A stretch of DNA of 64,000 bases from the NCBI GenBank assembly GCA_049968235.1, contig JBMFRC010000002.1, forward strand, positions 1-64,000, given 5' to 3'. Of this stretch, positions 2,804 to 60,144 are shown in pieces. Both the position numbers and the translations under genes were made by a program. This DNA comes from Candidatus Hydrogenedens sp. GTDB taxonomy: Bacteria; Hydrogenedentota; Hydrogenedentia; Hydrogenedentales; Hydrogenedentaceae. Within the stretch, counting starts at the first letter, position 1. Each line of letters begins with the position of its first letter. The notes under the pieces are model-generated. The model was given only the letters and a program-made list of their open reading frames with translations, was not told where the DNA came from and made no database searches.

Positions 2804-4232
2804 TTATTTTGCCCAAATAATATCATAATATTTTTTTACCTGTCCTTTTAATAATTTTAAGTTCTCGATAACATCCTTATTTCCACCCGCATATTCAATC
2901 ATCAATCTTCCTTCTTCAAAACACATCTCATCATGTAAAGGCAAGACATAACGTAATAAGAAGTGGGTATAAGCAACTAAACGATAAGGTCCATAAGGAC
3001 GGGGTAATTGTCCACCAGGAGTTTCAACTGCGACCGCATTTTCTTCTTTAATTGCATGAATTAAATCATTAAATTCAAGCGAAGGAGAAAAGCAAAGGGT
3101 GTAATATCTTCCAAACATATCATGATTCTCACAACTGTGGCTGTCACTAATTCCTACAATAGGGACTTTTTTCCCTTTTGATTTTGCTTCGATGTATTTT
3201 GCTAACTGTAAATTATTCACATCTACCTCTTGCAGTTCATCCCAACTGAAACCACTGATAAGTTCTACTGCATCAAAAATTGTTGTTTCGTATAAATAAT
3301 CTACTAACGCATTTGCAATATAATTTGTATTTCCCGGTCTCCAATAGGGATGAGCAAAAATACCTAATCCACCTCTTTCTCTAATTTTTTGGAATGTCCA
3401 CAAACAGGAAGCATATTGGAATTTATCCACGCCATAAGGCATATCACCAAGAGTATTCATTATATTTTGAACCTCTTCGCGATAAGTTTTATCATCTGTT
3501 CTGTAAAGTTCTGTAATTCCTTCTTTTGCTCCAAAACTTACAAAATGAACCGGATTATCCGGAGGATGAACTTCTTCTGCAGGGTAAATACGCAAATCAA
3601 TGGGCAAACCTTCAAATTGTTTAATTGCCTCTAATGAACCTGAATAATTTCGATGGTCTGATAAACCCATAAAATCATAACCTACTCTTCTGCATGCTTC
3701 CGACCACGTATCCTGGAGATTCTTTGCCGTCTGAACGGTAACTATGCATATGGAAATCCCCTTTATAGGGACGAAGAGCGAACAAATCAGGTTTTAAGGA
3801 ATATACATGAAAATTGCCTATTTCTTTGACCTTATTATCTGGGGTAATTTCTTCTAATCGAAAGATGTGTTCCTGTTCTGCTTCAAAATATTTTTTTATT
3901 GTGAATATATTATTCTGTGGCACGATTTCTTCTGCCTGAGCCTTAGTCCAACCTGTCTGTGTTGCATATCTTCCGACAGGGGTATAAGTCATCCTATAGG
4001 TATGAAGTGGTTTGGGGAAAGCATCAAATCGTGAAATAATTTGAATTGTAGTTTCTTTATCCGCAGGAACTATACGAGGAACAACTTGGAAATAACGGTC
4101 AGGGGCGTAGGCTTTTAAACCGCTGGGAAGTGCTGGTGTGAACAAACCTTGTGAATAGGATTGAACGCAACAAAAAACCCAGAACAAACAGAAAGATACT
4201 GTTATGAGAGTTAAATGTGCTCTTTTCATCAT
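2804..4232 (-). pseudogene. Secreted PHP-domain phosphoesterase split by a 1-nt frameshift near 3680-3700
   Basis: ORF 3675..4232 has a signal peptide (MMKRAHLTLITVSFCLFWVFCC) and ends in PHP motif I GDFHMHSYRSDG, then stops after 16 more codons. ORF 2804..3670, shifted one frame, reads upstream as ...QDTWSEACRRVGYDFMGLSDHRN (PHP motif II) with no stop. Removing a single nucleotide in gaatctccagg joins them into a canonical PHP N-terminus. Confidence 0.55.
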
Positions 4233-4347
4233 TTTTCTCCTAAATCATTAAATTGTTTTATATATATTCAAATATAATAAAATAAAGAGAATTTTAATTG
4301 TAAAAGAAGTAAAAACACAAACTAAAAATATTAATTCAAGTATAGAT

Positions 4348-5319
4348 ATGTTTCTTTATTTACTGACAACTGTAATTTGTTTCTCTGTTTCACAAACAAA
4401 TATACCACTTTCAACAAATTCCCATCAGCCTATTCGTAACTATTGGGAACATATCCAGGGATTAATCCAACAGTTTGATGAAATAAGAGAATCCGACATT
4501 CCCAATAAAACAAGATATTCTCGGACAGTTAATAAAAAGTATCCATTTGACTTATTTCGTTCGCTAACTCCACGTGAACTTATACGGGCATGTCGTGAAA
4601 GTATTAAATCAGCAAGAGAAGAAGGAAAACAGAAACACTGGACTGAAGAAGAAATCTCTCTCAAATGTGAAGAAAATATCAGTTATGCTCTGGAATACTG
4701 TGGAATCTTGATAGAGAAAAGTTCAGAAGTTGACTACTTGATATTTAGTATGGGGGAGGAGCAAGAAGAACCAGAACTTCGATTGTTTTTATTAAATCAG
4801 TGTATCCCTAACAGAAAGTCAAAAAGTTTGTTCAGTCTCCACTTTCAGATGCTTTTAAATAAAAGAGCGGAGGAATATCTAAAAACGCTATCGATAATAG
4901 TAAAAAGGGTAACCGAAAAACCTAACATCCAGATAGCAGGAATAGATGCGTTATACTCATTTTTTCTGGAACAATATCAGAAATGTATTATAAAAGACCC
5001 TATTTATCAGGCATACGCTAATGAAAAACATGAAAAGATAACTCCTTTGTGGTTAGAAAATCCACAAATTCCGAAACCATTAGAAACCACACAAATGGAA
5101 ATCAATAAACTGGACCGTCAGTTAGAAGATTTCATCGTTCAATTGGAATTAAAAATTACTGATAAACGACAGATTCACGAAGCAGTTGCAAAAAAATCAA
5201 AAGAAGTGTTAGAAAAGATATACAATAATTTACCTGTTAAGGGAAAAGAGCGATTAAAAACCTTTATATCGGGTGATATACCACTATCAAAAAAATCAGG
5301 AAATAGGGATACTTCGTAA
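4348..5319 (+). CDS. Hypothetical helical protein
   Basis: A 323-aa ORF with a hydrophobic N-terminus and no recognised motif. Its stop overlaps the next start (TAATG). Confidence 0.4.
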   Translation: MFLYLLTTVICFSVSQTNIPLSTNSHQPIRNYWEHIQGLIQQFDEIRESDIPNKTRYSRTVNKKYPFDLFRSLTPRELIRACRESIKSAREEGKQKHWTEEEISLKCEENISYALEYCGILIEKSSEVDYLIFSMGEEQEEPELRLFLLNQCIPNRKSKSLFSLHFQMLLNKRAEEYLKTLSIIVKRVTEKPNIQIAGIDALYSFFLEQYQKCIIKDPIYQAYANEKHEKITPLWLENPQIPKPLETTQMEINKLDRQLEDFIVQLELKITDKRQIHEAVAKKSKEVLEKIYNNLPVKGKERLKTFISGDIPLSKKSGNRDTS

Positions 5320-12984: not shown

Positions 12985-15501
12985 TTGCAAAAGATACACA
13001 AAAGAAATATACCATGGATTTTATTGTTTATATTATGCTTAGGAATTTGTCTTCGTATTTTATATCTAAAAGAAATTAGTAAAGAACCCTGGTTTACAAA
13101 TCCACTCTATGACCCCCAATATAATGATTACTGGGCAAAAGGTATTGCCACAGGAGATTGGACACTTCCTCCTTATGTAAATGACCCTGAAATTCGAACT
13201 ACTCCTCATGGTAGGCCTCCAGGGTATCCTTATTTACTTTCTTTAATATATCTCATTTTTGGTAGAAATCAATGGGCACCCAGAATAATTCAATACCTAT
13301 TTGGCATTTTAAATGTTATCCTTGCATGGTATTTATCTCAAAAGTATTATAGTTTACGTTTTGCCAATTTGCTTGCTCTTTTCATGGCAACTTTCTGGGG
13401 ATTTATCTATTTTGAATCCCAACTAACTTATCCTGTATTTGCAATAACGCTACTTCTCCTATGGTTCTTTCTAATACTTCAATGGAAAGAAAAAAATAAT
13501 AAAAAACTTTATCCCTTTCTATTAGGATTTGTCCTGGGAATATTTGCTCTCTTTCGACCCAATGGATTACTTTTACTTATTTTGTTCCCATTCCTATTTT
13601 TTTTATTTGTTCCTACAAAGCCATCTTTTTCCCGTTTGTTTATTCTGTTCTTTTTATTCTTATTCGGGATAACTATTCCTATAATCCCCTGTTTTATCCG
13701 AAATTATTTCGTCGCTCATGATTTTGTATTTATATCTTCTTATGGGGGACTAAATTTCTATGTTGGAAATCATCCGAAATCAAATGGAGCAGAACCTCGA
13801 ATACCGGAACTGAAAGAATGGATTGGATGCGATGAATGGTCCTGCTTCGATTATCCTGCAATTGTTAGAGGATTAGGGAAAAGTTTAGGAAAATCTGCAT
13901 TTTCTTTTTCCGAAGCCAATAAGTATTTTTACAAATCCGCATTTAACAACATTCGAAATTATCCCAATGAATGGCTATCATTAATCCTAAAAAAATTTCT
14001 TTTATTTTGGGGTCCTGCGGAAATCACAAATGATACTGTCCCTGCATGGGATAAATACTATTCAAAAATTTTAAAACCCCTTCCGGGCTTTTCTATATAT
14101 TTTGCATTATTTATTACAGGAATAATTACTGGATTATCCTCCTTCTTTCAAAAATCCAAAGAAGAGAATTATCTTAAAAAGTTGTTTGTTTTAATACCTT
14201 TATTAATTGTAATCATTTATTTCTTTTCGGTGCTTCCCTATTTTGTTGCCAGTAGATACCGTATTCCAATAATGCCTTTTATTATGATTTTGGGGGTTTA
14301 TTCTATCGATGAATTTATAAATGCTATACAAAAAAACAAAAAAACAAAAATCTTTCTTATTATTGCTTTGTTCTTTGTTGCCTTTTTTATAGGCAGTAAA
14401 AATCTAACAGGTTATCAGCCATCTCAATCCATATGGTTTTTCCGGAACGGTGTCTCAGCCTCATTAGAAGGAGACGAGACAAAAGCAAAGTTTTACTATA
14501 AAAAAGCATTAGAACTTGACCCCAATAATCTTTTTGCGCGTATAAACTATTCTCAGGTATTAGGAAGAATGGGCAGACCTTCTGAAGGCATTTATATTCT
14601 GACAAGAAACTTCTCTCTGTCTCTTTCTTCACCATCCGAACTTAATGCATTAGGTTATTTATTTGAAATAATAGGAGACTATGAGAAAGCACAATATTTT
14701 TATTCTCGTGCTATTGTAAGTAACCCTTCTTTTACTCTGGCTCACGCAAATATCGCTAACCTTTTTTTCAATCAACATCGTTTCGTCGAAGCAAAATGTC
14801 ATTACGAGATAGTTTCATCACTTCAGCCCAGTAATCCCATTTCTTATTTTCAGTTAGCACGAATCGCCGAGTTTGATAGAAAATATACAGAGGCTATTCT
14901 TTTTTATGAAAAATCTTTAAAACTAAATCCCCAATTCTATATTGCATGGAATAATCTTGGTTGGATTTATGAACAAATAGGAAATAAAAGGGGAGCAGAA
15001 CAAGCATATAAGAAATGTATTCAAATAAAACCGGACTATATCCTTGCCAGAATTAATTATGCTAATCTTCTTATCCAATCCGAACATTTCTCCGATGCCC
15101 AAAAACAGATTGATACCGTTTTAAAATATGCCCCCACAAATTGCCAGGCTTATTTGCTCCTCGGGAATATTTACATTAACCAATATGAATTGATTAAGGC
15201 AGTTATAGCCTTCCAAAAATCTCTGGAACTATGTCCCGATAATGCAAATGCATGGAATAACCTCGGATTAGCCTTATCTCTCTCAGGACAGGAAGAACAA
15301 GCCTGCGAAATGTGGCAAAAGGCCTTAGAGTACAACGATACATTGGTAGAAACTTATATAAATCTTATTATCTTTTATGAGAAACAAGGGAAAATTGAAA
15401 AGGCTCTTTCTATCTTAAAAAAAGCGATGGAAAAAATCCCTGATAATGAAGAGATAAGTTCCATATACAAACGATTGACTCAAATAAAACAGGTTTTATG
15501 A
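12985..15501 (+). CDS. GT39/ArnT-like polytopic membrane glycosyltransferase fused to C-terminal TPR repeats
   Basis: About 11 TM helices with RPPGYPYLL and other PMT_2-like features. The C-terminal 330 aa contain at least six TPR units (AWNNLGWIYEQIGN...). TTG start with AAAGGA upstream. Confidence 0.5.
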   Translation: MQKIHKRNIPWILLFILCLGICLRILYLKEISKEPWFTNPLYDPQYNDYWAKGIATGDWTLPPYVNDPEIRTTPHGRPPGYPYLLSLIYLIFGRNQWAPRIIQYLFGILNVILAWYLSQKYYSLRFANLLALFMATFWGFIYFESQLTYPVFAITLLLLWFFLILQWKEKNNKKLYPFLLGFVLGIFALFRPNGLLLLILFPFLFFLFVPTKPSFSRLFILFFLFLFGITIPIIPCFIRNYFVAHDFVFISSYGGLNFYVGNHPKSNGAEPRIPELKEWIGCDEWSCFDYPAIVRGLGKSLGKSAFSFSEANKYFYKSAFNNIRNYPNEWLSLILKKFLLFWGPAEITNDTVPAWDKYYSKILKPLPGFSIYFALFITGIITGLSSFFQKSKEENYLKKLFVLIPLLIVIIYFFSVLPYFVASRYRIPIMPFIMILGVYSIDEFINAIQKNKKTKIFLIIALFFVAFFIGSKNLTGYQPSQSIWFFRNGVSASLEGDETKAKFYYKKALELDPNNLFARINYSQVLGRMGRPSEGIYILTRNFSLSLSSPSELNALGYLFEIIGDYEKAQYFYSRAIVSNPSFTLAHANIANLFFNQHRFVEAKCHYEIVSSLQPSNPISYFQLARIAEFDRKYTEAILFYEKSLKLNPQFYIAWNNLGWIYEQIGNKRGAEQAYKKCIQIKPDYILARINYANLLIQSEHFSDAQKQIDTVLKYAPTNCQAYLLLGNIYINQYELIKAVIAFQKSLELCPDNANAWNNLGLALSLSGQEEQACEMWQKALEYNDTLVETYINLIIFYEKQGKIEKALSILKKAMEKIPDNEEISSIYKRLTQIKQVL

Positions 15502-15569
15502 AAATGATTTCGTTAAATTTATATAATTTTATAATTTAGTATAGAAAATAACCATAAGGAGTGGTAACA

Positions 15570-17774
15570 ATGTCTATAAAACTTCATCAGGAAAATAGGC
15601 TATGGGCATTTGATGCTCTAAAAGCATTAGAACAATTTATTTCTGACCCTGAATTTGAGGGAGATAAAGAGTTAGAAAAAACGCGTATTGAAGGCAAAAA
15701 AAGAGAACTCAAAGATGGTAAATATCGTGTTGTTTTCTTAGGAGAATTTAATGTTGGTAAAACAACATTAATCAATACCTTTTTCGGGGCTACTTACCTT
15801 CCCATGGTATTGGAAGAATGCACTGCTAAAGTAACTTATGTTATGGTGGGTGAAAACATGCAGGTTGTTCTGAGGGCTCAACAACCCATACCGGTGGAAG
15901 TTGTTCAGGTATTGAGAGATTTCCTCTCCTATTCAGGGATAGAAGCAGAGGTTCATCCGGATGAAACTTTTAACAACTGGGTCGTGGATTACAAATCAAA
16001 TTATCCTGAAGATATGTATAGAACGCTTAGTGCTATCGTTACACTAACGGCTGATGAAGAATTTCCCAAACTCAAAGTGCTACGGGAAAAAATTGAAGAA
16101 GTTATCGCCATCATTCCAGAAACAAGTGTTGAAGAAGATATTGCCCTCGTGGACTCTCCCGGTGTCCATAGTATTACAGAAACCCATAAAAAAGTAACCG
16201 AAGATATTATTCCTAACTGTCATCTTGTCGTTTGCTTACTCGATAGTCAAAGTGCCGGCAATGAACATAATCGTGATTTTATTGCAAAATTAGTAAAAGA
16301 ACGGCAACGCAAGGTGTTTTTTGTTATTAATAAATCCGACCAGTTAAATCCAGAAGAAATAGATACGCAAGGGAGAAGAGGACCTGCTAAAGATTTGCTC
16401 CGTTGTCTTGAAGGAACTGTTCAAAATCCGGAAATATTTTTTGTATCTGCCTTATATGCGCTATATGCATCCCAATTATTACGGGGTAGTATTACATTAA
16501 GCGATATTGATAAAAACGAAAAAATCCACATTCCCTACAACATAAGAAACCAATTGGAGCAAGCACCCAATCCGGGAGAAGAAATTGCTAATTATCTTAT
16601 GAACCGAAGTTCTTTCCTTCAATTCAAAAACAGACTGCTGGATTATTTATACACGGAAAATCGTGAAGGTGCGGTATTAACATCGGTCTGCAGATTCATC
16701 CGCGATTTTGCATATCGTTATGCAAAACCTCTCGAAGTGAAAATACAACTTGCTCAACAAAACCCTCGTTTGGAGCGAATTCGAAAAGAACGGAAGAGAC
16801 TTTATCAGGAAATACAAAATAATTCTAAGTTTATGGAAGAACTTATCAGGCAATTAAACACTCTTTCTGAGGGTGGAAAGATGAATGATGAAAAATATGA
16901 AGGAGAAGAACATTTAATAAATCGATTATTCTCGCGTCAGACTATCGAAAATGAAATTTTCAAACCTATTCGTCAATGGTTATGCACCGGAGATAATCTT
17001 ACCAAAGCCCGAAAAAACAAATATATTCCTCTCCAGGAAAAATTAGGAGAAATATTAGACAAGTACTTAAATTCTGCGTCTGCCGAATTAAACCAGTACA
17101 TAGAACAACATGAAAACTTTATAAAAAATCAGATTCGGGAGAATGGATATAATTTCCAGCATTTCACTTTACCTAAAATCAATCTTGAACGGGGTGCCAT
17201 TGTTGCGATAGACGCCAGTCTTGCACTTTCATATTTTCTATTTTTCATCGGAGGTATTTTGTTAGGTGGGGTTACAGGAGCCATTATAGGAGAAGGGTTC
17301 TTAAGTCAATTTTCCTGGCCTGATTATTTAGGTATCGCATTACCAATTATCCCACATATATCCGCATATATTTTAGGAGGAATAGGCGGAATTTTTGGGG
17401 GAATTTTAGGACTGATTGCTCGTTCTATGGGGGGAGATGAAATCCGTAGAGAAAAACTTATTGAAAAAATAAGTACTTATATTGAAAAAACATTAATACA
17501 GGGATTGAAGGAAAAAACAAATACCGAAATTAAAATGCGTAAAGAGCAGATTATCTCTGAGATTCAAACCTATTTTGATGATTTGAATATGCAATTAAAT
17601 AACCAGATTCGGAAATTAGCAGAAGAAGAAGACCGCTTACAAAAAGCCCAACAGGAACTTATACAACGGCTTCAAGGCAAAGTGGATAAACTTAATGAGA
17701 TAGCCAATCATGCCCATGAAATTATAGAAACTGCTTTCAAAACCAATTTGACAAATACAAATAAAAATGTATAA
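15570..17774 (+). CDS. Bacterial dynamin-like GTPase with predicted membrane paddle
   Basis: G1 GEFNVGKTT, G3 DSPG and G4 NKSD are present. They are followed by long helical regions and a Gly-rich hydrophobic hairpin (FLFFIGGILLGGVTGAIIG...ILGGIGGIFGGILGLIA). ATG 15570 with AAGGAG 9 nt upstream; the track start 15561 is GTG. Confidence 0.65.
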   Translation: MSIKLHQENRLWAFDALKALEQFISDPEFEGDKELEKTRIEGKKRELKDGKYRVVFLGEFNVGKTTLINTFFGATYLPMVLEECTAKVTYVMVGENMQVVLRAQQPIPVEVVQVLRDFLSYSGIEAEVHPDETFNNWVVDYKSNYPEDMYRTLSAIVTLTADEEFPKLKVLREKIEEVIAIIPETSVEEDIALVDSPGVHSITETHKKVTEDIIPNCHLVVCLLDSQSAGNEHNRDFIAKLVKERQRKVFFVINKSDQLNPEEIDTQGRRGPAKDLLRCLEGTVQNPEIFFVSALYALYASQLLRGSITLSDIDKNEKIHIPYNIRNQLEQAPNPGEEIANYLMNRSSFLQFKNRLLDYLYTENREGAVLTSVCRFIRDFAYRYAKPLEVKIQLAQQNPRLERIRKERKRLYQEIQNNSKFMEELIRQLNTLSEGGKMNDEKYEGEEHLINRLFSRQTIENEIFKPIRQWLCTGDNLTKARKNKYIPLQEKLGEILDKYLNSASAELNQYIEQHENFIKNQIRENGYNFQHFTLPKINLERGAIVAIDASLALSYFLFFIGGILLGGVTGAIIGEGFLSQFSWPDYLGIALPIIPHISAYILGGIGGIFGGILGLIARSMGGDEIRREKLIEKISTYIEKTLIQGLKEKTNTEIKMRKEQIISEIQTYFDDLNMQLNNQIRKLAEEEDRLQKAQQELIQRLQGKVDKLNEIANHAHEIIETAFKTNLTNTNKNV

Positions 17775-17814
17775 TTATAAAAATATTTAAACAACCCGTA
17801 AAAAAGCTATACTC

Positions 17815-18816
17815 ATGGAATATGTGCTATTAGGTTCATCTAATTTAAGGGTCTCTGTTATTGCCTTTGGAGCATGGCAAATAGGAGACTCTTCTTTCTG
17901 GGGGAAAAGTGATGAAAAAGAGGTTAAAGAAGTCGTCGATTATGCAATAGATATCGGTGTAAATTTATTTGATACTGCAGAAATGTATGGTTCAGGAGAA
18001 TCGGAAACGCAGTTAGGACGAATGATTGATAAAGGGAAACGCTCAAAAATAATTATCGCCACAAAGGTAAGCCCTCAAAACTGTCATCAAGAGCAATTAA
18101 TTCGTTCGTGTGAAGAAAGTCTAAAAAGACTTAATACCGATTATATTGATTTATATCAAATACATTGGCCACCTAAGGATATTCCTTTTGAAGAAGTCGC
18201 ACTTACTATGAAAAGACTGCAGGAACAGGGGAAAATTCGTTATATTGGAATATCCAATTTTGGAATTCAAAATATGCAAGAATGGTTCTCTAAAGGAGGG
18301 GTAGCCATTTCCAATCAGATTGGATACAACCTTCTATTTCGTTCACCAGAATTTGAAATAATTCCCTTTTGTAGAGAAAATAATATTGGGGTCCTGGTTT
18401 ACATGCCTTTAATGCAGGGATTATTGGCAGGTTGTTGGTCAAATGTAGAAGAAATCCCACTTTTAAGACGACGGACAAGGCACTTCTCAAAAAATCGACC
18501 CGGAACACGACATGGTGAAGAAGGTTGTGAACGATTGACCATTGAAACAGTTCAAGCCATTCATGCCCTTTCACAACATTTAGAAATTCCTATGGCTACA
18601 TTAAGTTTATCATGGCTCAAATGGCAAAAAGGAGTATCCTCCATTATTGTAGGTTGTAGGTCAAAAGCACAGATGGAAAGTAATATAGAAGCACTCTTAA
18701 AACCTCTGGACCCTGAGATACTTTCCCTCCTGAATGAGATTACTTACCCCCTAAAAAGGTATATGGGCAAAAATGCCGATATGTGGGAAAATGAAAAAAA
18801 TGCACGCATCCACTAA
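17815..18816 (+). CDS. Aldo/keto reductase
   Basis: AKR N-terminus LGSSNLRVSVIAFGAWQIG...DTAEMYG and IGISNF. Confidence 0.75.
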   Translation: MEYVLLGSSNLRVSVIAFGAWQIGDSSFWGKSDEKEVKEVVDYAIDIGVNLFDTAEMYGSGESETQLGRMIDKGKRSKIIIATKVSPQNCHQEQLIRSCEESLKRLNTDYIDLYQIHWPPKDIPFEEVALTMKRLQEQGKIRYIGISNFGIQNMQEWFSKGGVAISNQIGYNLLFRSPEFEIIPFCRENNIGVLVYMPLMQGLLAGCWSNVEEIPLLRRRTRHFSKNRPGTRHGEEGCERLTIETVQAIHALSQHLEIPMATLSLSWLKWQKGVSSIIVGCRSKAQMESNIEALLKPLDPEILSLLNEITYPLKRYMGKNADMWENEKNARIH

Positions 18817-22929: not shown

Positions 22930-23916
22930 ATGAGTGAGGAAATACAGTTTCCAAAGGATAAGATGAGATTATGTCCTGTTTGTCGAATGCCTATTAGTGT
23001 TTGGGCTATCCGATGTCGTTTCTGTGGGGAAACTGTTGGCCGACCTAAAAGAGAAATTGAAACTTTTACTGTTGAGGATTTAGGGGGAGAAACTCCAACT
23101 GCTAAGAATACATTATCTAACGAGGTCCTGGAAGCCATCGAAGAATTTCGTAAAGAGTTAGTGGAATCCCCCCAAAAAGAAGAACCTCCTACAATGTGGA
23201 ATTTGTGGGGGAAATATAAAACAACAACCTATGATTCACAGGGGAAAAAAATTCAGAGAATTAACCCTATACGTTGGATAATAATATTTGGAACCCTTTC
23301 TTTATTTATACTGTTGTCTTATTTTTTTGGACCTTCCGCATTGTCTCAGTTAAAATTATTATTTCAGGGGAAAACCGAAAATGTTGTAGAATATGACAAT
23401 CGTGCTTTAATAATGTTAGAGAATGGCGAACCTATTGAAAGGGTATTGCAGGAGGCATTAAAAGCATTTGAAACTACAAACTCGGAAGAAGACCGACAAA
23501 TTTTATTGAAGGTTAGAACAAAATTGATAGAACAAATTGATTCATTATTAACGAAAGAACCTTATAATCCATTAGATACTGCAGAAGCCTCGCGCATCTG
23601 CTCTGAAGTAATAAAGATTGATTATGATTCCAAAATACAAGACCTTTACAAAAAAGTAATCGATGAAGTCTCTGCATACAAAATGACCGTAACACAGATT
23701 GATATTGTTAATAAAAAAGCCACTTTTCATTTAAATAACCCTTCTTTCTCATTAAAAGAACAAACGGTATCCGAAGGTGAACTCATTCAAAACAGATTTT
23801 TAGTAAAACAAATTCTATCATCACGCGTAAGACTTGAAGATACAAAAATAGTCAATAAAGGAATCCCTCGTAAGTTAACTATTTCGTTAATGGGTGAGGT
23901 AAAAGCAGATTCATGA
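22930..23916 (+). CDS. Zinc-ribbon plus single-TM protein of unknown function
   Basis: N-terminal CPVC-x12-CRFC zinc ribbon, one TM helix (IIIFGTLSLFILLSYFF) and a helical C-terminal domain. GGAG lies 9 nt upstream. Confidence 0.4.
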   Translation: MSEEIQFPKDKMRLCPVCRMPISVWAIRCRFCGETVGRPKREIETFTVEDLGGETPTAKNTLSNEVLEAIEEFRKELVESPQKEEPPTMWNLWGKYKTTTYDSQGKKIQRINPIRWIIIFGTLSLFILLSYFFGPSALSQLKLLFQGKTENVVEYDNRALIMLENGEPIERVLQEALKAFETTNSEEDRQILLKVRTKLIEQIDSLLTKEPYNPLDTAEASRICSEVIKIDYDSKIQDLYKKVIDEVSAYKMTVTQIDIVNKKATFHLNNPSFSLKEQTVSEGELIQNRFLVKQILSSRVRLEDTKIVNKGIPRKLTISLMGEVKADS

Positions 23917-23936
23917 ATAAAATGAAAGGACAAAAT

Positions 23937-24557
23937 ATGAAAAAAACAATCACTTTTTTTTCCATTCTTATCATTCTGTCAATGTTTCTTTCCTGTGCTA
24001 CAGTTAAAGGGTGGATTTCTCATGATTCGAGGAAACTTGTTGCACAAAAACAAGTCTCTCGCGAAGTAGCCCATGTCCCTACAAAAGAGGAGTACATTCA
24101 AGAACTCCAACAAATTGTAAACAATGAGATTAAATCTGCAATGGCAATAGATAAAAATTATGTATATCATAAAAAACCCTACTTCTGGAAGAACTATTCC
24201 TCATACAACAATACTGAAGGTCCATTTGAAATAAACATTCAAGAAACCGATTCCAAATCGAAACCATATATAGCAAAAATTGAATTGGAAAAAACAATGT
24301 ATTACACAAAATTACACAGGTCAAAAAGGGATGCGGAAGAAGATACAAACCTTATTCGAAGTAGTGGAAAAGAAACATTAACTTATGAATTGAGAAACGG
24401 TCGATGGACAAAACTTGGTTCTTTATTTGTCCCCGAACAGACAGAAAAAAAAGTGGGCGATACATGGGTTCCGTTAAAAGAGGAAGAAATACAAAAAGAA
24501 CAACCCGAAGAACCTAAACAGGGATGGCTTAATCGTATTCGTTCGTGGATTTTTTAG
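23937..24557 (+). CDS. Lipoprotein of unknown function
   Basis: MKKTITFFSILIILSMFLSC is a signal peptide with a lipobox. AAAGGA lies upstream of ATG 23937; the track start is 23913. Confidence 0.4.
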   Translation: MKKTITFFSILIILSMFLSCATVKGWISHDSRKLVAQKQVSREVAHVPTKEEYIQELQQIVNNEIKSAMAIDKNYVYHKKPYFWKNYSSYNNTEGPFEINIQETDSKSKPYIAKIELEKTMYYTKLHRSKRDAEEDTNLIRSSGKETLTYELRNGRWTKLGSLFVPEQTEKKVGDTWVPLKEEEIQKEQPEEPKQGWLNRIRSWIF

Positions 24558-24596
24558 TTAATTGCACGAAAGATACTTATTTTTTATCTGTTAGCA

Positions 24597-25883
24597 ATGA
24601 AGAAAACTATTATTCTCATAACAGAGTTAATCATTATTTCAGGAGCCTTTTTATGGGTTTGTATAGGATTAAAAACTGTCTTTTTAGGGGATACACTTAC
24701 AAGTAGATTGGCAACGGTTTATGCATTAACCTATCATCACACATGGTATATCAATCAGTCATCGGAATCATCTCCGAATCCCTTTGAGAACCGAACTGTA
24801 GATAAAGTTCAAGGGAAAGAGGGAATCATTTCCAGCAAACCTCCTATTCTTTCTTTATTCATGACCCTTGAGTATCCATTTCTCCGTTGGATGGGATATT
24901 CACTTGATAATAATCAGGATAACAAACCTATTGCACGCATTATGATTATTTTAAATGTGATTATCCCATACCTCATCGCAGTTTTATTTATATGGAAATT
25001 TCTATATGAAATAAAGACAACCCCACCTGTTCGCATTATTATTTTGCTCGGTTTACTCTATGGGACACAATGGTCTGCTTTTGCTTCTCATTTTACAAAT
25101 CATGTTCCCGCTACTTCCTACCTAATTATCGGATTATACTTTATATGGAAATCTTATTGTGTACAGAGTTCCGTTCCATTAATGTATTATTTACTTATAG
25201 GACTATGTGCCTCATTGGTCTATACTATCGATTTACCTCTAACAATCTTTATCGCTTGTGCAATATTATTTTTACTAATAAAGAAAAAAAATAAACCACT
25301 TCCGTGGATTATTATCGGAGCATTGCCGATTCTTATTATTCATCTTGTAATTATGTACCATATTACGGGGAATATACTGCCGGTTCAGATTAGCAAAGAA
25401 CCTTTTTTATTTGAATCCTCGTATTGGAGACATCCAGCAGGTCCGGATGCATTACATCATCCTAAATCCCTTTACGCCTTCAATATTCTGTTTGGGGCAA
25501 AAGGCTTATTTATCCTCTATCCTATCCTAATTTTTGGATTATGTATATATCTTCCTCATATATGGAAAACACTGCATAACGATACAAAATTAATTTCTAT
25601 TTTTTTCCTTATTAGTTTTATTATCTTAAATATGTATTATATTTTTTCAACTAATAATTACGGCGGTGTTTCTTATGGTTTTCGCTGGCACATCGGTTGT
25701 ATGCCTTTATTAACTGGAATGAGTATCCCTTATATAGAAAACAGGAAAAGAACCTTTCTTTTTTGGGTATTCTGGATAGTCTTCTTTTTAATTTCTCTCT
25801 ATTCGACTTACGAATGCCGAACTTATCCGTGGTCTGTGGACAAGGAATGGACAACACGACTAATTTTTGGTTCCTTGATATAA
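24597..25883 (+). CDS. Polytopic membrane protein, possible GT-C-like
   Basis: More than 10 hydrophobic helices and no clear catalytic motif. The GT-C call is a guess based on architecture only. Confidence 0.35.
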   Translation: MKKTIILITELIIISGAFLWVCIGLKTVFLGDTLTSRLATVYALTYHHTWYINQSSESSPNPFENRTVDKVQGKEGIISSKPPILSLFMTLEYPFLRWMGYSLDNNQDNKPIARIMIILNVIIPYLIAVLFIWKFLYEIKTTPPVRIIILLGLLYGTQWSAFASHFTNHVPATSYLIIGLYFIWKSYCVQSSVPLMYYLLIGLCASLVYTIDLPLTIFIACAILFLLIKKKNKPLPWIIIGALPILIIHLVIMYHITGNILPVQISKEPFLFESSYWRHPAGPDALHHPKSLYAFNILFGAKGLFILYPILIFGLCIYLPHIWKTLHNDTKLISIFFLISFIILNMYYIFSTNNYGGVSYGFRWHIGCMPLLTGMSIPYIENRKRTFLFWVFWIVFFLISLYSTYECRTYPWSVDKEWTTRLIFGSLI

Positions 25884-25895
25884 AAATTTCGTGAA

Positions 25896-28550
25896 CTAAA
25901 AACGAACTCGTGTGCCGGGAAATGCAGTAAGGCTGAATTCAACACTAATATCTGTCCCCCGTTCACGTTCGGTCCATCGCAGTCCTATATCCCAACAATG
26001 CAGGTTTCTGCGAATTTCATAGGTCTGCCGTCTTAAGTTATCATTTTCTAAATCAAATATATGTTCAAAAGCAACCGACCATTTATCATTTAAACGATAA
26101 CCGAGACCGTATAAAATGTCACGATTTACCACATTATTTTCTGTTTCCGCCAACATAAACCCAACTCTTCCATTGGCTCTTCCACCGATAAGGGTATTAT
26201 CAAAATACATTGTCCCTAAAACACGGGTATAATCGCCGGAGACTAAATCGGATATTTCTAAATAGGAATTTCTCCCCTCTTTCTCATCAAGCCATCTATC
26301 CATCCAATCATTAAGGGATAGTCTATTTACTTCTCGTATCTGTTCGTACCATTTTATTTCTTCCGATACATGTTTTTCAGCAGCAAGTTGTAACCCATAC
26401 CATTTACGAGGTCTAACATCCATCTCCAATTCATAATCATCTGATTTATGATATTCATTCCAAAAATCATTTCCCTGATATAACGTTAACCTTGCAAGTT
26501 GCCAAACTTCCTGTGTTTCTGCATCTTTTCCATAAAATACATTATCTATTTTTGTTTCTATCCGTGTTTGTCCATTAACTGTATCCAGGGGGTCAAAATA
26601 ATATCGGTCTCCAATGTTATAGGCAGATGGTGTTCGATATGACAGAGTTAATGATGGTAGTACAACATGTTTTATAGCAGAGAAACCTAAAAAACTGCTA
26701 TATACACGAATAAATCGTGATTGAAGTGTTACGCCCATTTTTTCAGACAAACCACCGATACTTTCATCGCCATTAGATTGTTCTGAATACCATGTTACTT
26801 GACTTTCTGCAAAAGGTGTTATCTTAACAGGTCCCCATGGTTTTATATCATAGGTAAGTCTCAGGATATTAACTGTCCGAAACGCCTCATAATCATACGG
26901 CTCACGACGATTATATCCATTTATCGTATCAAAGGATAGGTAGACATCTGAAAATAAAGGCTGTTCTAACCAATGAAAAGTTGCTTCTGGCAATCTTTCT
27001 GTCTCATGAACCCAGCCATGTGTTCCTACTCTTGTCGTTGTAGTGGCTATATACCCAGGCTGGCGATAGGTAACATTAACAAATGAACGAGGTTCTGTTC
27101 TGTCCCGGTAGGTCTTATAAAAGAAATCCTTATAAAAATCTTCATCGCTCCAATGTTCTACCTGAGCAAGAAGGGTTAGGTCATCGCTGGGTTCAAACCG
27201 GTTTTTTATATGGATATAACCTCGCTCTTCAGTCGTATATAAGCCATGGACTTCTCCTTTGGTTCTATAAAAAAATGAAGTGGGACTTTCCATAAAATCG
27301 TAGTAAACATCGCCTCCAAATCCTACACCTTCTTTCTCTGTAATCATCACTCTGGGACCTATCTGTATATTATCTGTAACATCTCTTAAATAACCAATAT
27401 TTAAATACGAGCCAATACCAGATTCTCTACCCATATCAATATCAAATCCACCCATAAATCCTTCTCCCCCCAAAAATGGGAAAAATAAGGGAGTTGTAAC
27501 TTTACCTATTTGTAATCGAAGAAATTCCGCTTCTTTAAATTTACTTTCCTCTACAACGAGTTTCTTGACTTTTATACGGTAGTGAGGTGGGTCATGGTCA
27601 CAGGTTGTTAACCAGACATCTTCTCCGGTAAAAGAATTTTCCCCATGGAGATGTAAAGAACCTGCATGAAAATAAAATGGACCCACAACCCCTCGGGCAT
27701 TTGTCATTTCTCCCGTCTTTTTCAAAAAATCATATTCGATTTGCTCTGCGGAAAAATCACGGTAGGGGTCTTTTATAGAAAGATACTCGGCGTAAAGTCT
27801 TCCCGCCCTTAACCGTTTTTGTGCTAATTCTTCTTCACTCAAAACAGGTTTTAATATTGAAGGTACATTTAAAATTTCTTCTTTAGGAGGTGTTGTATAA
27901 ACGACTTTATTCGCTTGAAGGATAGAATCCTTCTGGGTTATTCTTACATTTCCCTCTGCTTCTACCTTTTCTGTATCTCCTTCATATAAAAAACGGTCTG
28001 ATTCAAATAACAATTCCCCCAATCGGAGGTGAACATGTCCTTGCATAACAGTTTTTCCAGTCTCTAATTCTCTTTGCATTCGGTCTGCTTTTACATCTTT
28101 GAAGGGTTGTTTCCAATCGGGAGCAATAAAACCTTCAGCCTCAGAGCCTAATGTCAGTGGTTGTGTAAAAGCATCACGAATAGAACGCGGTTTTAAATCC
28201 ACCATCGGATTCATAGAAGGTTTTCCTGTTATAGGAGCACGGACTTGTTCTATAGGGGGATAACGGCGAATTTGTGTCCCAACAGTTTCAGGTTTCCCCT
28301 GTTTTTTCTCTTCTTTGTTTTGTCTTGAATTATTAAAATTCTTTCTTATTGAGCCTTGTTGACTTACTTTTGTAGAGGATTTATCGTTAACCTTAACAGT
28401 TTCTTGTTGGGTAGTATTTCTCTGTGAATTATCGTTTCCATTTTTAGATGTGTCCTCTCCATAAGTCCATACACATAAACAAAAAACTATCAAAGCAATG
28501 ATTGTCTTGCGAATTTTTATTGTATATATATTCACTTTATAGTTCTCCAA
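25896..28550 (-). CDS. LptD/OstA-like outer-membrane protein
   Basis: Signal peptide, a Q/N/K-rich linker, and an OstA-N-like segment (GHVHLRLGELLFESDRFLYEGDTEKVEAEGNVRITQKDSILQANKVVY). A long beta-rich C-terminus ends in an aromatic residue (…TRVRF). The start is uncertain: TTG 28550 or GTG 28535. Confidence 0.45.
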   Translation of the reverse strand: MENYKVNIYTIKIRKTIIALIVFCLCVWTYGEDTSKNGNDNSQRNTTQQETVKVNDKSSTKVSQQGSIRKNFNNSRQNKEEKKQGKPETVGTQIRRYPPIEQVRAPITGKPSMNPMVDLKPRSIRDAFTQPLTLGSEAEGFIAPDWKQPFKDVKADRMQRELETGKTVMQGHVHLRLGELLFESDRFLYEGDTEKVEAEGNVRITQKDSILQANKVVYTTPPKEEILNVPSILKPVLSEEELAQKRLRAGRLYAEYLSIKDPYRDFSAEQIEYDFLKKTGEMTNARGVVGPFYFHAGSLHLHGENSFTGEDVWLTTCDHDPPHYRIKVKKLVVEESKFKEAEFLRLQIGKVTTPLFFPFLGGEGFMGGFDIDMGRESGIGSYLNIGYLRDVTDNIQIGPRVMITEKEGVGFGGDVYYDFMESPTSFFYRTKGEVHGLYTTEERGYIHIKNRFEPSDDLTLLAQVEHWSDEDFYKDFFYKTYRDRTEPRSFVNVTYRQPGYIATTTTRVGTHGWVHETERLPEATFHWLEQPLFSDVYLSFDTINGYNRREPYDYEAFRTVNILRLTYDIKPWGPVKITPFAESQVTWYSEQSNGDESIGGLSEKMGVTLQSRFIRVYSSFLGFSAIKHVVLPSLTLSYRTPSAYNIGDRYYFDPLDTVNGQTRIETKIDNVFYGKDAETQEVWQLARLTLYQGNDFWNEYHKSDDYELEMDVRPRKWYGLQLAAEKHVSEEIKWYEQIREVNRLSLNDWMDRWLDEKEGRNSYLEISDLVSGDYTRVLGTMYFDNTLIGGRANGRVGFMLAETENNVVNRDILYGLGYRLNDKWSVAFEHIFDLENDNLRRQTYEIRRNLHCWDIGLRWTERERGTDISVEFSLTAFPGTRVRF

Positions 28551-32256: not shown

Positions 32257-32275
32257 TAACCTTTACAAAATATAT

Positions 32276-33232
32276 TCATTCCTGCACTAAATTTACAATC
32301 ATCTTTTCTCGGGCTTTAATTAAATTTGTTAATAGCCCATTGATAGGACAGTCTATATGTAATTCTTTACCAATTTTTACAATGGCTCCGTTCAGGGCAT
32401 CTATTTCTGTCTTCTTCCCTTGCTTTAAATCTTCCCGCATACTTGCATAATGTTCTGCTGTCGGTGGAATTAATTTATAAAACAGTAACTGGATATATTC
32501 CTCCGGAGTAGAAATTATCATTGGGACATTTTTCTTTTGAGCCACCGCATATAGTTCATGAATTACATTCTTCATTATTATTTGCGTTTCTTCTGTTTCC
32601 ATCAACCTTCCATAAGGGACATCCAGTAAAGCGGATAACGGATTTAATGCAGAGTTATATGCAACTTTCGCCCAAATTAAACCCTCTATATTTTCGGTAT
32701 ATATTGTTGGAATACCTGATTTATTCATCGTTTCTGCAATGTTTCGCACAATTGATTCATCCGGACCCTGTTCCAATCTACCTAATGCAGTCGGCTCTGC
32801 AATCACAGTTACCTGAACAAATCCAGGTTTTAATATTCGACTGCCAAAAATAACCCGGGCTGGAATTGTTCTTTTCATCCCTAAAAATTCTGCTATCTTT
32901 TCAACATTTCCTAATCCGTTTTGATATGAACATACCAATGTATTGTTCGAGATAATAGGAAGAATATCTCGGATTGCTTGTTCTGTATCGTAAGATTTTA
33001 CAGATAAAAGGACTAAATCTATATTTCCTTTCCATTCTTCTTGAACCTTTGTGAATATCGGCAGATTGGGGATATGATGATTGCCCCAGATACCTGAAAT
33101 ATATAACCCCTCCCTCTGTATAGCCTCTACCATTTCAGGTCTTCCCACAAGAAAAACATCATGCCCCGCTTTTTTCATAAATCCACCAACAACACTACCT
33201 AATGCACCTGCTCCAATTATTAAAATCTTCAT
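32276..33232 (-). CDS. panE: 2-dehydropantoate 2-reductase family (ApbA/PanE)
   Basis: Rossmann N-terminus MKILIIGAGALGSVVGG and the KPR family layout. Confidence 0.55.
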   Translation of the reverse strand: MKILIIGAGALGSVVGGFMKKAGHDVFLVGRPEMVEAIQREGLYISGIWGNHHIPNLPIFTKVQEEWKGNIDLVLLSVKSYDTEQAIRDILPIISNNTLVCSYQNGLGNVEKIAEFLGMKRTIPARVIFGSRILKPGFVQVTVIAEPTALGRLEQGPDESIVRNIAETMNKSGIPTIYTENIEGLIWAKVAYNSALNPLSALLDVPYGRLMETEETQIIMKNVIHELYAVAQKKNVPMIISTPEEYIQLLFYKLIPPTAEHYASMREDLKQGKKTEIDALNGAIVKIGKELHIDCPINGLLTNLIKAREKMIVNLVQE

Positions 33233-33271
33233 TTACATTACTCCTTGGAGGAAAAATAACAATCTGTTTAT

Positions 33272-36010: not shown

Positions 36011-36060
36011 CGCGATTTCCTATTTTACCGTATTTTACTAATTTTATGCATATTAACTAT

Positions 36061-60132: not shown

Positions 60133-60144
60133 GAATATTGTAAA

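What the first reader, a model, noticed from the sequence alone, without database searches (positions are those of the whole stretch)
15570..17774. Bacterial dynamin-like GTPase with glycine-zipper membrane paddle
G1 (GEFNVGKTT), G3 (DSPG) and G4 (NKSD) motifs are intact. They are followed by long helical neck and trunk regions and a Gly-rich hydrophobic hairpin (GGILLGGVTGAIIG … ILGGIGGIFGGILGLIA), then a coiled-coil tail. This is the BDLP architecture associated with membrane fusion, fission or repair and, in some species, phage resistance. It is a single copy here, whereas these proteins often occur in tandem.
Basis: partly seen in the sequence, partly recalled or inferred. Interest (0 to 1): 0.55.

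Follow-up and report, generated by a model that had tools for sequence, protein, structure and literature searches.

The report
Solo bacterial dynamin-like GTPase (Hydrogenedentota)
This gene encodes a genuine bacterial dynamin-like membrane-remodelling GTPase with a glycine-rich hydrophobic hairpin, one conserved copy per genome across the candidate phylum Hydrogenedentota; databases already label its relatives "dynamin family protein", so it is a sound but fairly ordinary find.

Summary

A confident AlphaFold model (pLDDT 84) shows N-terminal helices, a G domain, long helices, two hydrophobic helices and a long returning C-terminal helix. G1-G4 and the GxxxGxxxG zipper are conserved in 66 relatives down to 33% identity.

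The organism is a close relative of Candidatus Hydrogenedens terephthalaticus (93% identity). The family is small, was named almost only from Hydrogenedentota, and occurs once per genome. The window holds no second dynamin, and the surroundings are housekeeping genes, not a defence island.

New detail: the family splits into two sister clades. The window's clade is solo. In the other clade, every locus whose upstream flank is available has an overlapping ~280-aa G-domain-only dynamin paralogue upstream.

Most likely it is a nucleotide-gated, self-assembling membrane scaffold or tether that maintains the cytoplasmic membrane. Fusion versus fission, and paddle versus true transmembrane hairpin, remain open. 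Verdict: new member of a known kind, with modest interest.

The parts
15498..15527 (+). Promoter-like site (ATGAAA-18-TATAAT, 10 of 12) in the 68-bp gap after the upstream gene
   Evidence: Consensus scan. The count of such sites in the region is no higher than in shuffles, so this is weak evidence only.
15556..15561 (+). Shine-Dalgarno AAGGAG, 8 nt before the ATG
   Evidence: The alternative GTG start at 15561 lies inside it.
15570..17774 (+). Coding sequence of the 734-aa bacterial dynamin-like protein (stop codon 17772-17774)
15576..15716 (+). Two N-terminal helices (residues 3-24 and 33-49), the N-terminal part of the neck (BSE-like) bundle
   Evidence: AlphaFold secondary structure. Aligns with BDLP residues 28-60. 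W12 is invariant.
15717..16484 (+). GTPase (G) domain, residues 50-305, with a family-conserved alpha/beta insert (about residues 98-175) between switch I and switch II
   Evidence: Pfam Dynamin_N covers residues 54-255. Model. Invariant T158, P166 and R172 lie in the insert.
15741..15767 (+). G1 / P-loop GEFNVGKTT
   Evidence: G58, N61, V62, G63 and K64 are invariant in 66 sequences.
15810..15836 (+). G2 / switch I region LEECTAKVT (T85)
   Evidence: E82, E83, C84 and T85 are invariant. Aligns with the BDLP 'NPCTAVLT' segment.
16152..16163 (+). G3 DSPG
   Evidence: D195, P197 and G198 are invariant.
16329..16340 (+). G4 NKSD
   Evidence: K255 and D257 are invariant and N254 is at least 90% conserved.
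16572..17141 (+). Middle helical region (residues 335-524): outgoing neck and trunk helices, with the conserved ENREGA turn at residues 363-368
   Evidence: Helices 335-363, 367-396, 399-434, 446-482 and 486-524 in the model. R355, Y359, L360 and N364 are invariant.
17220..17294 (+). Hydrophobic hairpin helix 1 (residues 551-575) with glycine zipper G562-x3-G566-x3-G570-x3-G574
   Evidence: Kyte-Doolittle 19-residue maximum 2.14. Wimley-White octanol -9.0 kcal/mol. G562 and G570 are at least 90% conserved.
17295..17360 (+). Hairpin loop (residues 576-597), aromatic-rich with one acidic residue (D585); length varies across the family (5-36 residues)
17361..17420 (+). Hydrophobic hairpin helix 2 (residues 598-617) with G606-x3-G610-x3-G614
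   Evidence: G606, G610 and G614 are at least 90% conserved. Aligns with the BDLP1 paddle (residues about 554-606).
17421..17771 (+).
   Evidence: The model has one helix over residues 597-733. Aligns with the BDLP C-terminal helices up to residue 679. K704 is invariant; R618, R657, R700, L708 and A715 are at least 90% conserved.

Best explanation
The gene encodes a bona fide bacterial dynamin-like protein (BDLP) of the BDLP/mitofusin class. It belongs to a small orthologous family named almost only from the phylum Hydrogenedentota, with one copy per genome.

Shown here:
- An intact, conserved dynamin-type G domain.
- Helical segments on both sides of the G domain whose predicted fold matches solved BDLPs and mitofusins.
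- A conserved, charge-free, glycine-zipper hydrophobic hairpin at the sequence position of the BDLP1 paddle.
- No adjacent dynamin partner in the window's clade.
- A housekeeping genomic context.

Inferred mechanism, by analogy with BDLP1, Cj-DLP1/2, DynA and the mitofusins:
- The hairpin inserts into the cytoplasmic face of the inner membrane.
- GTP binding drives G-domain dimerisation and opening of the neck and trunk hinges, so molecules assemble into a scaffold or trans-tether that bends or bridges membrane.
- GTP hydrolysis disassembles the scaffold.
- Lacking a partner, this version should work as a homo-oligomer.

Inferred role (weaker): constitutive maintenance or repair of the cytoplasmic membrane, by sealing or fusing damaged or highly curved membrane. 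A dedicated phage-defence role is less likely.
For: Family identity:
- Pfam Dynamin_N E 8.5e-22, above the cut-off.
- The best PDB sequence hit is Nostoc BDLP: E 5e-14 with the single sequence and 2.7e-26 with the family profile. Three collinear matched regions include the paddle and the C-terminal helices.

Predicted fold:
- AlphaFold mean pLDDT 84.4.
- Foldseek PDB top hits are BDLP 2j69/2j68, then SynDLP, Cj-DLP1/2, IniA and the mitofusins.

Conservation:
- G1, G2, G3 and G4 residues are invariant in 66 relatives down to 33% identity, and G606/G610/G614 are at least 90% conserved.

Hairpin properties:
- The helices are almost free of charges.
- The loop is acidic (28 K/R against 112 D/E), and the flank after helix 2 is basic (306 K/R against 112 D/E).
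- Wimley-White octanol energies are -9.0 and -3.3 kcal/mol here, against -5.9 and -6.5 for the BDLP1 paddle. All 66 relatives are favourable on the interfacial scale.

Distribution and context:
- There are 152 full-length-type homologues. Almost all that carry an organism name are 'dynamin family protein' from Candidatus Hydrogenedentes.
- The genome scan returned 76 loci, of which 70 carry family members; no genome has two copies, and the next relatives match at only 23-27% over the G domain.
- Only 72 representative proteins reach E 1e-30 or better.
- No second dynamin lies in the window.
- Neighbours are CstA, carbonic anhydrase, isochorismatase, a PMT_2-TPR glycosyltransferase, an aldo-keto reductase, APH, HPRT and TilS. 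None is conserved next to the gene beyond the genus-level clade.

Literature:
- The BDLP1 paddle gives membrane attachment, and most bacterial DLP genes are paired in operons (PMC6104087).
- GTP-state BDLP1 forms a rigid curvature scaffold (bioRxiv 10.1101/2025.05.27.656310).
- DynA gathers at membrane damage and supports membrane integrity (PMC8844932).
Against: - No biochemical or genetic data exist for any member of this family.
- The coordinates of the model were not available to scripts. That the hairpin sits exposed at the trunk tip is therefore inferred from collinearity with BDLP1 and from composition; it was not measured.
- Whether BDLPs fuse, cut or merely scaffold membranes differs between characterised members. 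BDLP1 alone did not fuse vesicles in vitro (bioRxiv 10.1101/2025.05.27.656310), and IniA mediates fission (PMC6715688). The physiological role is therefore a guess.
- Most characterised bacterial DLPs act in pairs, so a partner encoded elsewhere in the genome cannot be excluded.
- Hydrogenedentota are uncultured, so 'housekeeping' rests only on conservation and context.
Confidence: 0.75

Rival explanations
1. Permanently anchored, mitofusin-like fusogen. The two hydrophobic helices would form a true transmembrane hairpin with the loop in the periplasm, as in Fzo1 and the mitofusins. The protein would be an integral inner-membrane tether and fusogen rather than a reversibly binding paddle protein.
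For: - In the window's protein both helices (25 and 20 residues) pass the Kyte-Doolittle threshold of 1.6 (maxima 2.14 and 1.91). Both also have favourable octanol insertion energies (-9.0 and -3.3 kcal/mol).
- Loops reach 36 residues with polar and acidic residues. The charge pattern is positive-inside-like: the loop has 28 K/R against 112 D/E, and the flank after helix 2 has 306 K/R against 112 D/E.
- Mitofusin tip helices give permanent attachment (PMC6104087).
Against: - Only 27 of 66 family members have both helices favourable on the octanol scale, whereas all are favourable on the interfacial scale.
- The BDLP1 paddle, experimentally a peripheral element, scores just as hydrophobic.
- The sister clade has a 5-residue hydrophobic Pro-Gly turn like BDLP1.
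- No dedicated topology predictor could be run.
Confidence: 0.3
2. Membrane fission or vesicle-release dynamin, like IniA/IniC or LeoABC. The protein would cut membrane from the inside to shed damaged patches or to produce extracellular vesicles.
For: - IniA mediates fission (PMC6715688), and mycobacterial DLPs mediate vesicle secretion (PMC10240201).
- The organism is likely diderm: an LptD-like gene lies at 25896-28550.
Against: - Sequence and profile similarity is clearly highest to BDLP1 and not to IniA (E 2.7e-26 against 9e-7).
- The NCBIfam LeoA/HP0731 model scores 17 bits against a cut-off of 325.
- IniA and LeoA act with partners encoded alongside them, which are absent here.
- Nothing in the context points to vesicle biogenesis.
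Confidence: 0.2
3. Anti-phage defence gene: a 'Dynamins' system, or a DynA-like factor that delays lysis.
For: - PADLOC LeoBC and LeoA models match.
- DynA of B. subtilis delays phage-induced lysis (PMC8844932, PMC12998192).
- One divergent sister-clade locus (L081) lies beside McrBC-like (AAA_5 + DUF2357) and HerA/FtsK-like genes.
Against: - The PADLOC matches reflect general dynamin similarity, and the described system needs adjacent LeoA and LeoBC genes. Only one gene is present here.
- The family occurs once per genome, with a tree of two clean clades, across the Hydrogenedentota genomes. Defence genes are usually patchy.
- Neighbours throughout the 64 kb are core metabolism and housekeeping genes.
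- GC content matches the surroundings.
Confidence: 0.07
4. A small translation- or ribosome-associated GTPase (Era, EngA/Der or EngB) fused to an unrelated membrane tail, as some automatic annotations of relatives imply ('GTPase Era', 'EngB', '50S ribosome-binding GTPase').
For: Weak sub-threshold hits to Der, Era and YsxC models (E 4e-10 to 2e-7) and to MMR_HSR1. JGI gives such names to several relatives.
Against: - All those hits are far below the curated cut-offs (39 bits against 307, 37 against 237).
- Dynamin_N is well above its cut-off.
- The whole-length fold matches BDLPs and mitofusins.
Confidence: 0.01

Closest known systems
Nostoc punctiforme BDLP1 (PDB 2j68, 2j69, 2w6d)
   Same: - Best sequence, profile and Foldseek match.
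- Same order of parts: N-terminal helices, G domain, neck and trunk helices, Gly-rich hydrophobic hairpin, returning C-terminal helices.
- Similar length (734 against 695 aa).
- Hairpin hydrophobicity is comparable.
   Different: - Only 15-18% identity.
- BDLP1 is one of four tandem DLP genes in an operon (seen in L079 and L080; bioRxiv 10.1101/2025.05.27.656310). This gene is solo.
- G4 is canonical NKSD here, against NAWD in BDLP1.
- The stretch between the two matched G-domain regions is about 33 residues longer than in BDLP1.
- The hairpin is longer (67 against about 40 residues), with a 22-residue loop instead of a tight Pro-Gly turn.
Mitofusins and Fzo1 (MFN1, MFN2, Fzo1p)
   Different: - Mitofusins are eukaryotic outer-mitochondrial-membrane proteins.
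- Their transmembrane topology is established, whereas it is unresolved here.
- Sequence similarity is limited to the G domain (E about 1e-6 to 1e-9).
Campylobacter jejuni DLP1/DLP2 pair (PDB 5owv, 5oxf)
   Different: Cj-DLP1/2 are an obligate heterotypic operon pair that forms a 2:2 tetramer (PMC6104087). No partner lies next to this gene. The sister clade's partner is a G-domain-only protein, not a full-length DLP.
Bacillus subtilis DynA
   Same: A dynamin-like membrane-binding GTPase thought to preserve membrane integrity (PMC8844932, PMC12998192). This is the functional model adopted here.
   Different: DynA is a two-headed fusion of two DLP units and is cytosolic until recruited. The protein here has a single unit. 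No direct sequence or structure comparison was made here.
Mycobacterial IniA and E. coli LeoA
   Different: Much weaker sequence relationship: IniA E 9e-7, and the NCBIfam LeoA family model scores 17 bits against a cut-off of 325. Both act with partners encoded alongside them.

Membership tests
Dynamin superfamily, bacterial dynamin-like proteins (BDLP/mitofusin class) | Large GTPase domain recognised by the Dynamin_N profile above the curated threshold | tested here: met
   PF00350 E 8.5e-22, 78.4 bits against a cut-off of 27, residues 54-255.
Dynamin superfamily, bacterial dynamin-like proteins (BDLP/mitofusin class) | Intact G1 (GxxxxGKS/T), G2 Thr, G3 (DxxG) and G4 (N/TKxD) motifs | tested here: met
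   GEFNVGKTT, T85, DSPG and NKSD. Key residues are invariant in 66 relatives.
Dynamin superfamily, bacterial dynamin-like proteins (BDLP/mitofusin class) | Helical neck (BSE) and trunk (stalk) built from segments before and after the G domain, with the C-terminal helix returning to the G domain | tested here: met
Dynamin superfamily, bacterial dynamin-like proteins (BDLP/mitofusin class) | Lipid-binding element (paddle or tip helices) between the outgoing and returning trunk helices | tested here: met
   Two charge-free Gly-zipper helices at residues 551-575 and 598-617 align with the BDLP1 paddle. They are conserved in the family. Their partitioning energies are like those of the BDLP1 paddle.
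Dynamin superfamily, bacterial dynamin-like proteins (BDLP/mitofusin class) | GTP hydrolysis, nucleotide-dependent self-assembly and membrane binding or remodelling | not testable with these tools
   Needs purified protein and liposome assays.
Paired or tandem bacterial DLP operons (Cj-DLP1/2, LeoABC, IniA/IniC, Nostoc four-gene operon) | A second DLP gene immediately adjacent in the same operon | tested here: not met
   No other dynamin-like ORF lies in the 64-kb window or next to the 37-93% identical relatives. The sister clade does have an upstream G-domain-only paralogue.
'Dynamins' anti-phage system (PADLOC LeoA + LeoBC) | Similarity to the LeoA and LeoBC profiles | tested here: met
   LeoBC E 1.1e-23 and LeoA E 4.6e-20. 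This is generic dynamin-like similarity.
'Dynamins' anti-phage system (PADLOC LeoA + LeoBC) | Co-located LeoA-type and LeoBC-type genes, typically in a variable defence island | tested here: not met
   Single gene. Housekeeping neighbours. One copy per genome.
LeoA/HP0731 family (NCBIfam NF041922) | Score above the curated family cut-off | tested here: not met
   17.2 bits against a cut-off of 325.
Mitofusin/Fzo1-type transmembrane DLPs | Two membrane-spanning helices with the connecting loop on the far side of the membrane | tested here: inconclusive
   The window's helices are long and hydrophobic enough, and the charge distribution fits. But only 27 of 66 relatives pass on the octanol scale, and the peripheral BDLP1 paddle scores alike.
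Era/Der/EngB small GTPases (names given to some relatives) | Score above the curated equivalog cut-offs | tested here: not met
   Der 39.1 against 306.7, Era 36.6 against 237, YsxC 30.6 against 124 bits.

The most novel reading that the evidence does not exclude
The Hydrogenedentota BDLP may be an ancient, phylum-wide core gene that exists in two natural states. One is a self-sufficient solo form, as here, possibly anchored permanently by a true transmembrane glycine-zipper hairpin, which would make it a bacterial counterpart of mitofusin topology. The other is a sister form that depends on a translationally coupled, G-domain-only 'half dynamin', which would regulate it by heterotypic G-G dimerisation. 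If so, the pair of clades would be a natural experiment on how dynamin partnerships arise or are lost, and the solo form would be a minimal one-component bacterial membrane fusogen.
Probability: 0.15. Interest if true: 0.55.

Novelty: new member of a known kind. Interest (0 to 1): 0.27.

Why it matters
[quoted passage not shown] This family is conserved, occurs once per genome and is solo in the window's clade. It comes from an uncultured phylum and has an unusually long, very hydrophobic glycine-zipper hairpin. It would be a convenient one-component system for asking what a single BDLP can do to a membrane. Its sister clade, with a G-domain-only partner, offers a built-in comparison. For annotation, the result corrects labels such as 'GTPase Era', 'EngB' and '50S ribosome-binding GTPase' on relatives. 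Beyond that, the finding confirms what automated pipelines already call a 'dynamin family protein'.

Tried and rejected
- Second dynamin in the window. phmmer of the protein, plus HMMs of the sister clade's G-only partner and of its downstream 2-TM protein, were run against all six-frame ORFs. Nothing was found but the gene itself.
- Conserved gene neighbourhood. All-against-all clustering of ORFs from 81 loci (80 fetched loci plus the window segment) found no neighbour conserved in the window's clade beyond genus level. The downstream aldo-keto reductase is syntenic only in the low-GC Hydrogenedens group. It has its own perfect sigma-70 consensus promoter. A functional link is rejected.
- GTG start at 15561. 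Rejected in favour of the ATG at 15570.
- Defence system. PADLOC hits are generic and the system architecture is absent.
- tRNA scan. No tRNA genes in the window, so the scan gave no tRNA-type sign of an integration site.
- Names for the more distant full-length relatives from the representatives search. The listing of cluster members returned no organism names, so how far the family extends outside the phylum stays open.
- Literature search for Hydrogenedentes plus dynamin. It returned only one paper, a general treatise that was not opened.
- Paddle versus transmembrane hairpin. Hydropathy, charge statistics and Wimley-White energies did not settle the question.
- Model coordinates are not exposed to scripts, so burial or exposure of the hairpin could not be computed.
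Full report
**1. The observation**

The + strand carries an ORF from 15561 to 17774. The alternative GTG at 15561 lies inside that ribosome-binding site. The family alignment also starts at this Met. The product has 734 residues.

- GEFNVGKTT, residues 58-66
- DSPG, residues 195-198
- NKSD, residues 254-257
- GGILLGGVTGAIIG, within residues 551-575
- ILGGIGGIFGGILGLIA, within residues 598-617

GC content (0.34-0.36) is the same as in the rest of the window.

**2. What it is**

Sequence evidence:
- Pfam Dynamin_N matches residues 54-255 at E 8.5e-22 (78.4 bits, cut-off 27).
- Matches to Era, Der and YsxC models are far below their curated cut-offs.
- Against all PDB sequences the best hit is the Nostoc punctiforme bacterial dynamin-like protein (2j68). 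The E-value is 5e-14 with the single sequence and 2.7e-26 with a profile of 66 relatives.
- That profile match has three collinear regions: N-terminal helices plus P-loop and switch I; G3 and G4; and residues 479-715 against BDLP 434-679. The last region covers the paddle and the C-terminal helices.
- Next come Fzo1, Cj-DLP1, IniA, the mitofusins and SynDLP.

Structure evidence:
- An AlphaFold2 model built on the 66-sequence alignment is confident, with mean pLDDT 84.4.
- It shows two N-terminal helices; an alpha/beta G domain (about residues 50-305); long helices at 335-524; a 27-residue coil; helix 552-577; a short helix 583-587; and one long helix 597-733.
- Foldseek against the PDB puts BDLP 2j69/2j68 first (E 2.4e-16 and 1.8e-15, about 780 aligned columns). 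SynDLP, Cj-DLP1/2, IniA, the mitofusins, Fzo1, dynamin, Drp1, OPA1 and LeoA follow.

The protein is therefore a BDLP/mitofusin-class dynamin-like protein. It carries invariant K704 and near-invariant R657, R700, L708 and A715.

**3. Conservation and distribution**

- The large protein database returned 152 homologues, nearly all 720-770 aa and full length. Almost all that carry an organism name are 'dynamin family protein' from Candidatus Hydrogenedentes or Hydrogenedentota; two carry other labels.
- A scan of one genome per species returned 76 loci. The best is 93% identical and comes from Candidatus Hydrogenedens terephthalaticus, so the window comes from a close relative of that organism.
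- Family members run from 93% down to about 29% identity. The list then drops abruptly to 23-27% matches over the G domain only, in Verrucomicrobiota, Phycisphaerales/Tepidisphaeraceae, a deltaproteobacterial MAG and cyanobacteria.
- No assembly appears twice, except one gene split over two contigs. This supports one family member per genome.
- An exhaustive HMM search of 1.84 billion representatives found only 72 proteins at E 1e-30 or better, some of them fragments. It found 3,908 at 1e-10 or better and 12,696 at 0.001 or better. This is a small, tight family inside a very large superfamily.
- In the 66-sequence alignment the G1 residues (G58, N61, V62, G63, K64), the switch I block (E82, E83, C84, T85), G3 (D195, P197, G198) and G4 (K255, D257) are invariant. 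So are residues in the G-domain insert (T158, P166, R172) and in the helical regions (R355, Y359, L360, N364, W470, K704). This pattern indicates an active, selected GTPase.

**4. The hydrophobic hairpin**

- Helix 1 (residues 551-575) carries G562-x3-G566-x3-G570-x3-G574. Helix 2 (residues 598-617) carries G606-x3-G610-x3-G614. G562, G570, G606, G610 and G614 are at least 90% conserved.
- Across the 66 relatives both helices are almost free of charged residues. The loop between them varies from 5 to 36 residues and is acidic (28 K/R against 112 D/E). The 15 residues after helix 2 are strongly basic (306 K/R against 112 D/E).
- Kyte-Doolittle 19-residue maxima are 2.14 and 1.91.
- Wimley-White octanol energies of the best 19-mers are -9.0 and -3.3 kcal/mol. 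The two halves of the BDLP1 paddle score -5.9 and -6.5.
- Only 27 of 66 relatives are favourable for both helices on the octanol scale. All are favourable on the interfacial scale.

Taken together, the segment is a membrane-partitioning element at the position of the BDLP1 paddle, not a buried soluble core. The data do not decide whether it inserts into one leaflet, as a paddle does, or spans the bilayer, as a mitofusin-like hairpin does. The nearest out-of-phylum relatives (L075, L077) lack such a hairpin.

**5. Context**

- The upstream gene, a PMT_2 glycosyltransferase with TPR repeats, ends 68 bp before the start. A weak promoter-like site lies in that gap.
- Forty bases downstream begins an aldo-keto reductase gene. 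It is preceded by a perfect TTGACA-16-TATAAT at 17748-17775.
- The window otherwise encodes CstA, carbonic anhydrase, isochorismatase, HPRT, TilS, an LptD-like protein, RuvAB, sensor kinases, a zinc ABC transporter, PFK, 6PGD, LepA, signal peptidases and similar core functions.
- No tRNA genes were found. Nothing in the Pfam annotation suggests a prophage or a defence island.
- The same neighbourhood is kept in a 92% identical relative (L001) but is entirely different in a 42% identical one (L003).
- Clustering of all ORFs in 81 loci (80 fetched loci plus the window segment) found no neighbour conserved with the window's clade beyond the low-GC Hydrogenedens group.

**6. Solo versus tandem**

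- A neighbour-joining tree of 70 full-length proteins, rooted with cyanobacterial BDLPs, splits the family into two sister clades. The tree is rough.
- In clade B (29 loci, 29-36% identical to the window's protein), every locus with an available upstream flank has a ~280-aa ORF overlapping the start of the BDLP gene.
- That ORF is a stand-alone dynamin-type G domain with GDFNVGKS, REESRALPT, DTAG and NKAD motifs. It hits Pfam Dynamin_N and is about 26% identical to the window's G domain.
- This partner family comprises about 117 clusters. Those that carry an organism name are from Hydrogenedentota.
- About a third of clade B loci also have a downstream ~205-aa protein with two hydrophobic segments.
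- Clade A (46 loci, including the window) has neither gene next to the BDLP. HMMs of both find nothing in the window.
- For comparison, the cyanobacterial outgroup loci carry four tandem BDLPs. This matches the literature (PMC5827413; bioRxiv 10.1101/2025.05.27.656310).

**7. Mechanism**

Shown: the parts list above and its conservation.

Inferred from characterised relatives:
- The hairpin inserts into the cytoplasmic face of the inner membrane, helped by the basic juxta-membrane stretch.
- GTP binding promotes G-domain dimerisation and opening at the hinges. The result is an ordered scaffold or a trans-tether that imposes curvature or bridges membranes. Hydrolysis releases it.
- This is the BDLP1 model. 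In it the GTP state forms a rigid scaffold about 10 nm in radius and the GDP state is loose (bioRxiv 10.1101/2025.05.27.656310; paddle role in PMC6104087).
- Because no partner is encoded alongside, homotypic assembly is expected.

The physiological role is the weakest step. One copy per genome, vertical-looking inheritance and housekeeping context favour membrane maintenance or repair, as proposed for DynA (PMC8844932). Fission or vesicle release, as for IniA (PMC6715688, PMC10240201), cannot be excluded. A dedicated anti-phage role is unlikely. The PADLOC LeoA and LeoBC hits reflect general dynamin similarity, and the two-gene architecture and island context are absent.

**8. Comparison and novelty**

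The closest known protein is Nostoc BDLP1. Order of parts, length and paddle position are the same. The differences are:
- 15-18% identity
- solo rather than part of a four-gene operon
- a canonical NKSD G4 motif
- a larger G-domain insert
- a longer hairpin with a real loop

The protein meets every sequence- and fold-level criterion of the BDLP class that could be tested. It fails the optional 'paired operon' trait and the curated LeoA family threshold. Relatives are already labelled 'dynamin family protein' by NCBI's pipeline. I found no paper that discusses dynamins of this phylum; the one paper holding both words is a general treatise and was not opened. I rate it a new member of a known kind.

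The modestly new points are:
- one family member per genome across the Hydrogenedentota genomes sampled
- the solo versus G-only-partner dichotomy between sister clades
- the unusually hydrophobic, long glycine-zipper hairpin in the window's clade

**9. Limits**

- Only 64 kb of the genome was available, so another DLP may be encoded elsewhere.
- Model coordinates could not be analysed.
- No dedicated topology predictor was available.
- The tree is a simple neighbour-joining tree.
- Several MAG labels are inconsistent with the tree.
- No experimental data exist for this family.

Noticed in passing
L041:7141-7989, L049:7165-8001, L047:2678-3514, L068:7169-8008 and about 24 further loci (clade B of the family): A ~280-aa stand-alone dynamin-type G domain (GDFNVGKS / REESRALPT / DTAG / NKAD) is encoded immediately upstream of the BDLP gene and overlaps its start. 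It is present in every sister-clade locus with an available flank and absent from the window's clade. About 117 protein clusters exist, often mislabelled '50S ribosome-binding GTPase'. It is a possible heterotypic G-domain partner.
   Followed up: partly
L041:10166-10792, L042:7172-7846, L049:10175-10798, L081:8992-9600: In about a third of the sister-clade loci, a ~205-aa protein with no Pfam family and two hydrophobic segments in its C-terminal half overlaps the stop codon of the BDLP gene. This suggests a three-gene cassette (G-only, BDLP, small membrane protein). No homologue is in the window.
   Followed up: partly
L081:1417-12791: The most divergent G-only/BDLP pair sits in a run of same-strand, overlapping genes. 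These include an AAA_5 ATPase plus a weak DUF2357 match (McrBC-like) upstream and a 1064-aa HerA/FtsK-like ATPase downstream. This locus looks more like a defence island than the others do.
   Followed up: no
window 17748-17775: A perfect sigma-70 consensus promoter (TTGACA, 16 nt, TATAAT; 12 of 12) overlaps the last codons and the stop codon of the BDLP gene, just upstream of the aldo-keto reductase gene (17815-18816). The reductase probably has its own promoter.
   Followed up: partly
L010, L009, L012, L017, L032, L033, L054 (record titles): Several MAGs that carry clear members of this family are titled 'uncultured Nitrospirales/Nitrospiraceae', 'Candidatus Bathyarchaeia archaeon', 'Verrucomicrobiota' or 'delta proteobacterium'; their family copies are 32-80% identical to the window protein. 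These are probably mislabelled or contaminated bins rather than true occurrences outside the phylum.
   Followed up: no
window 22930-25883 and 2804-5319: Runs of conserved genes have no Pfam family. Three consecutive + strand ORFs (328, 214 and 428 aa; the last is a polytopic membrane protein) are syntenic in the 92% identical relative L001. ORFs of 288, 185 and 323 aa lie at 2804-5319.
   Followed up: no
window 30328-39280: Three large PAS-containing histidine kinases or hybrid sensor kinases (642, 912 and 1064 aa) are clustered within 9 kb.
   Followed up: no
window 58324-62490: lepA is followed by two tandem signal peptidase I (S26) genes. The second is unusually long (479 aa) with two matched stretches.
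   Followed up: no
L079:5487-14071 and L080:3565-11769: The cyanobacterial outgroup loci carry four consecutive full-length BDLP genes, the known Nostoc-type four-gene operon.
   Followed up: partly
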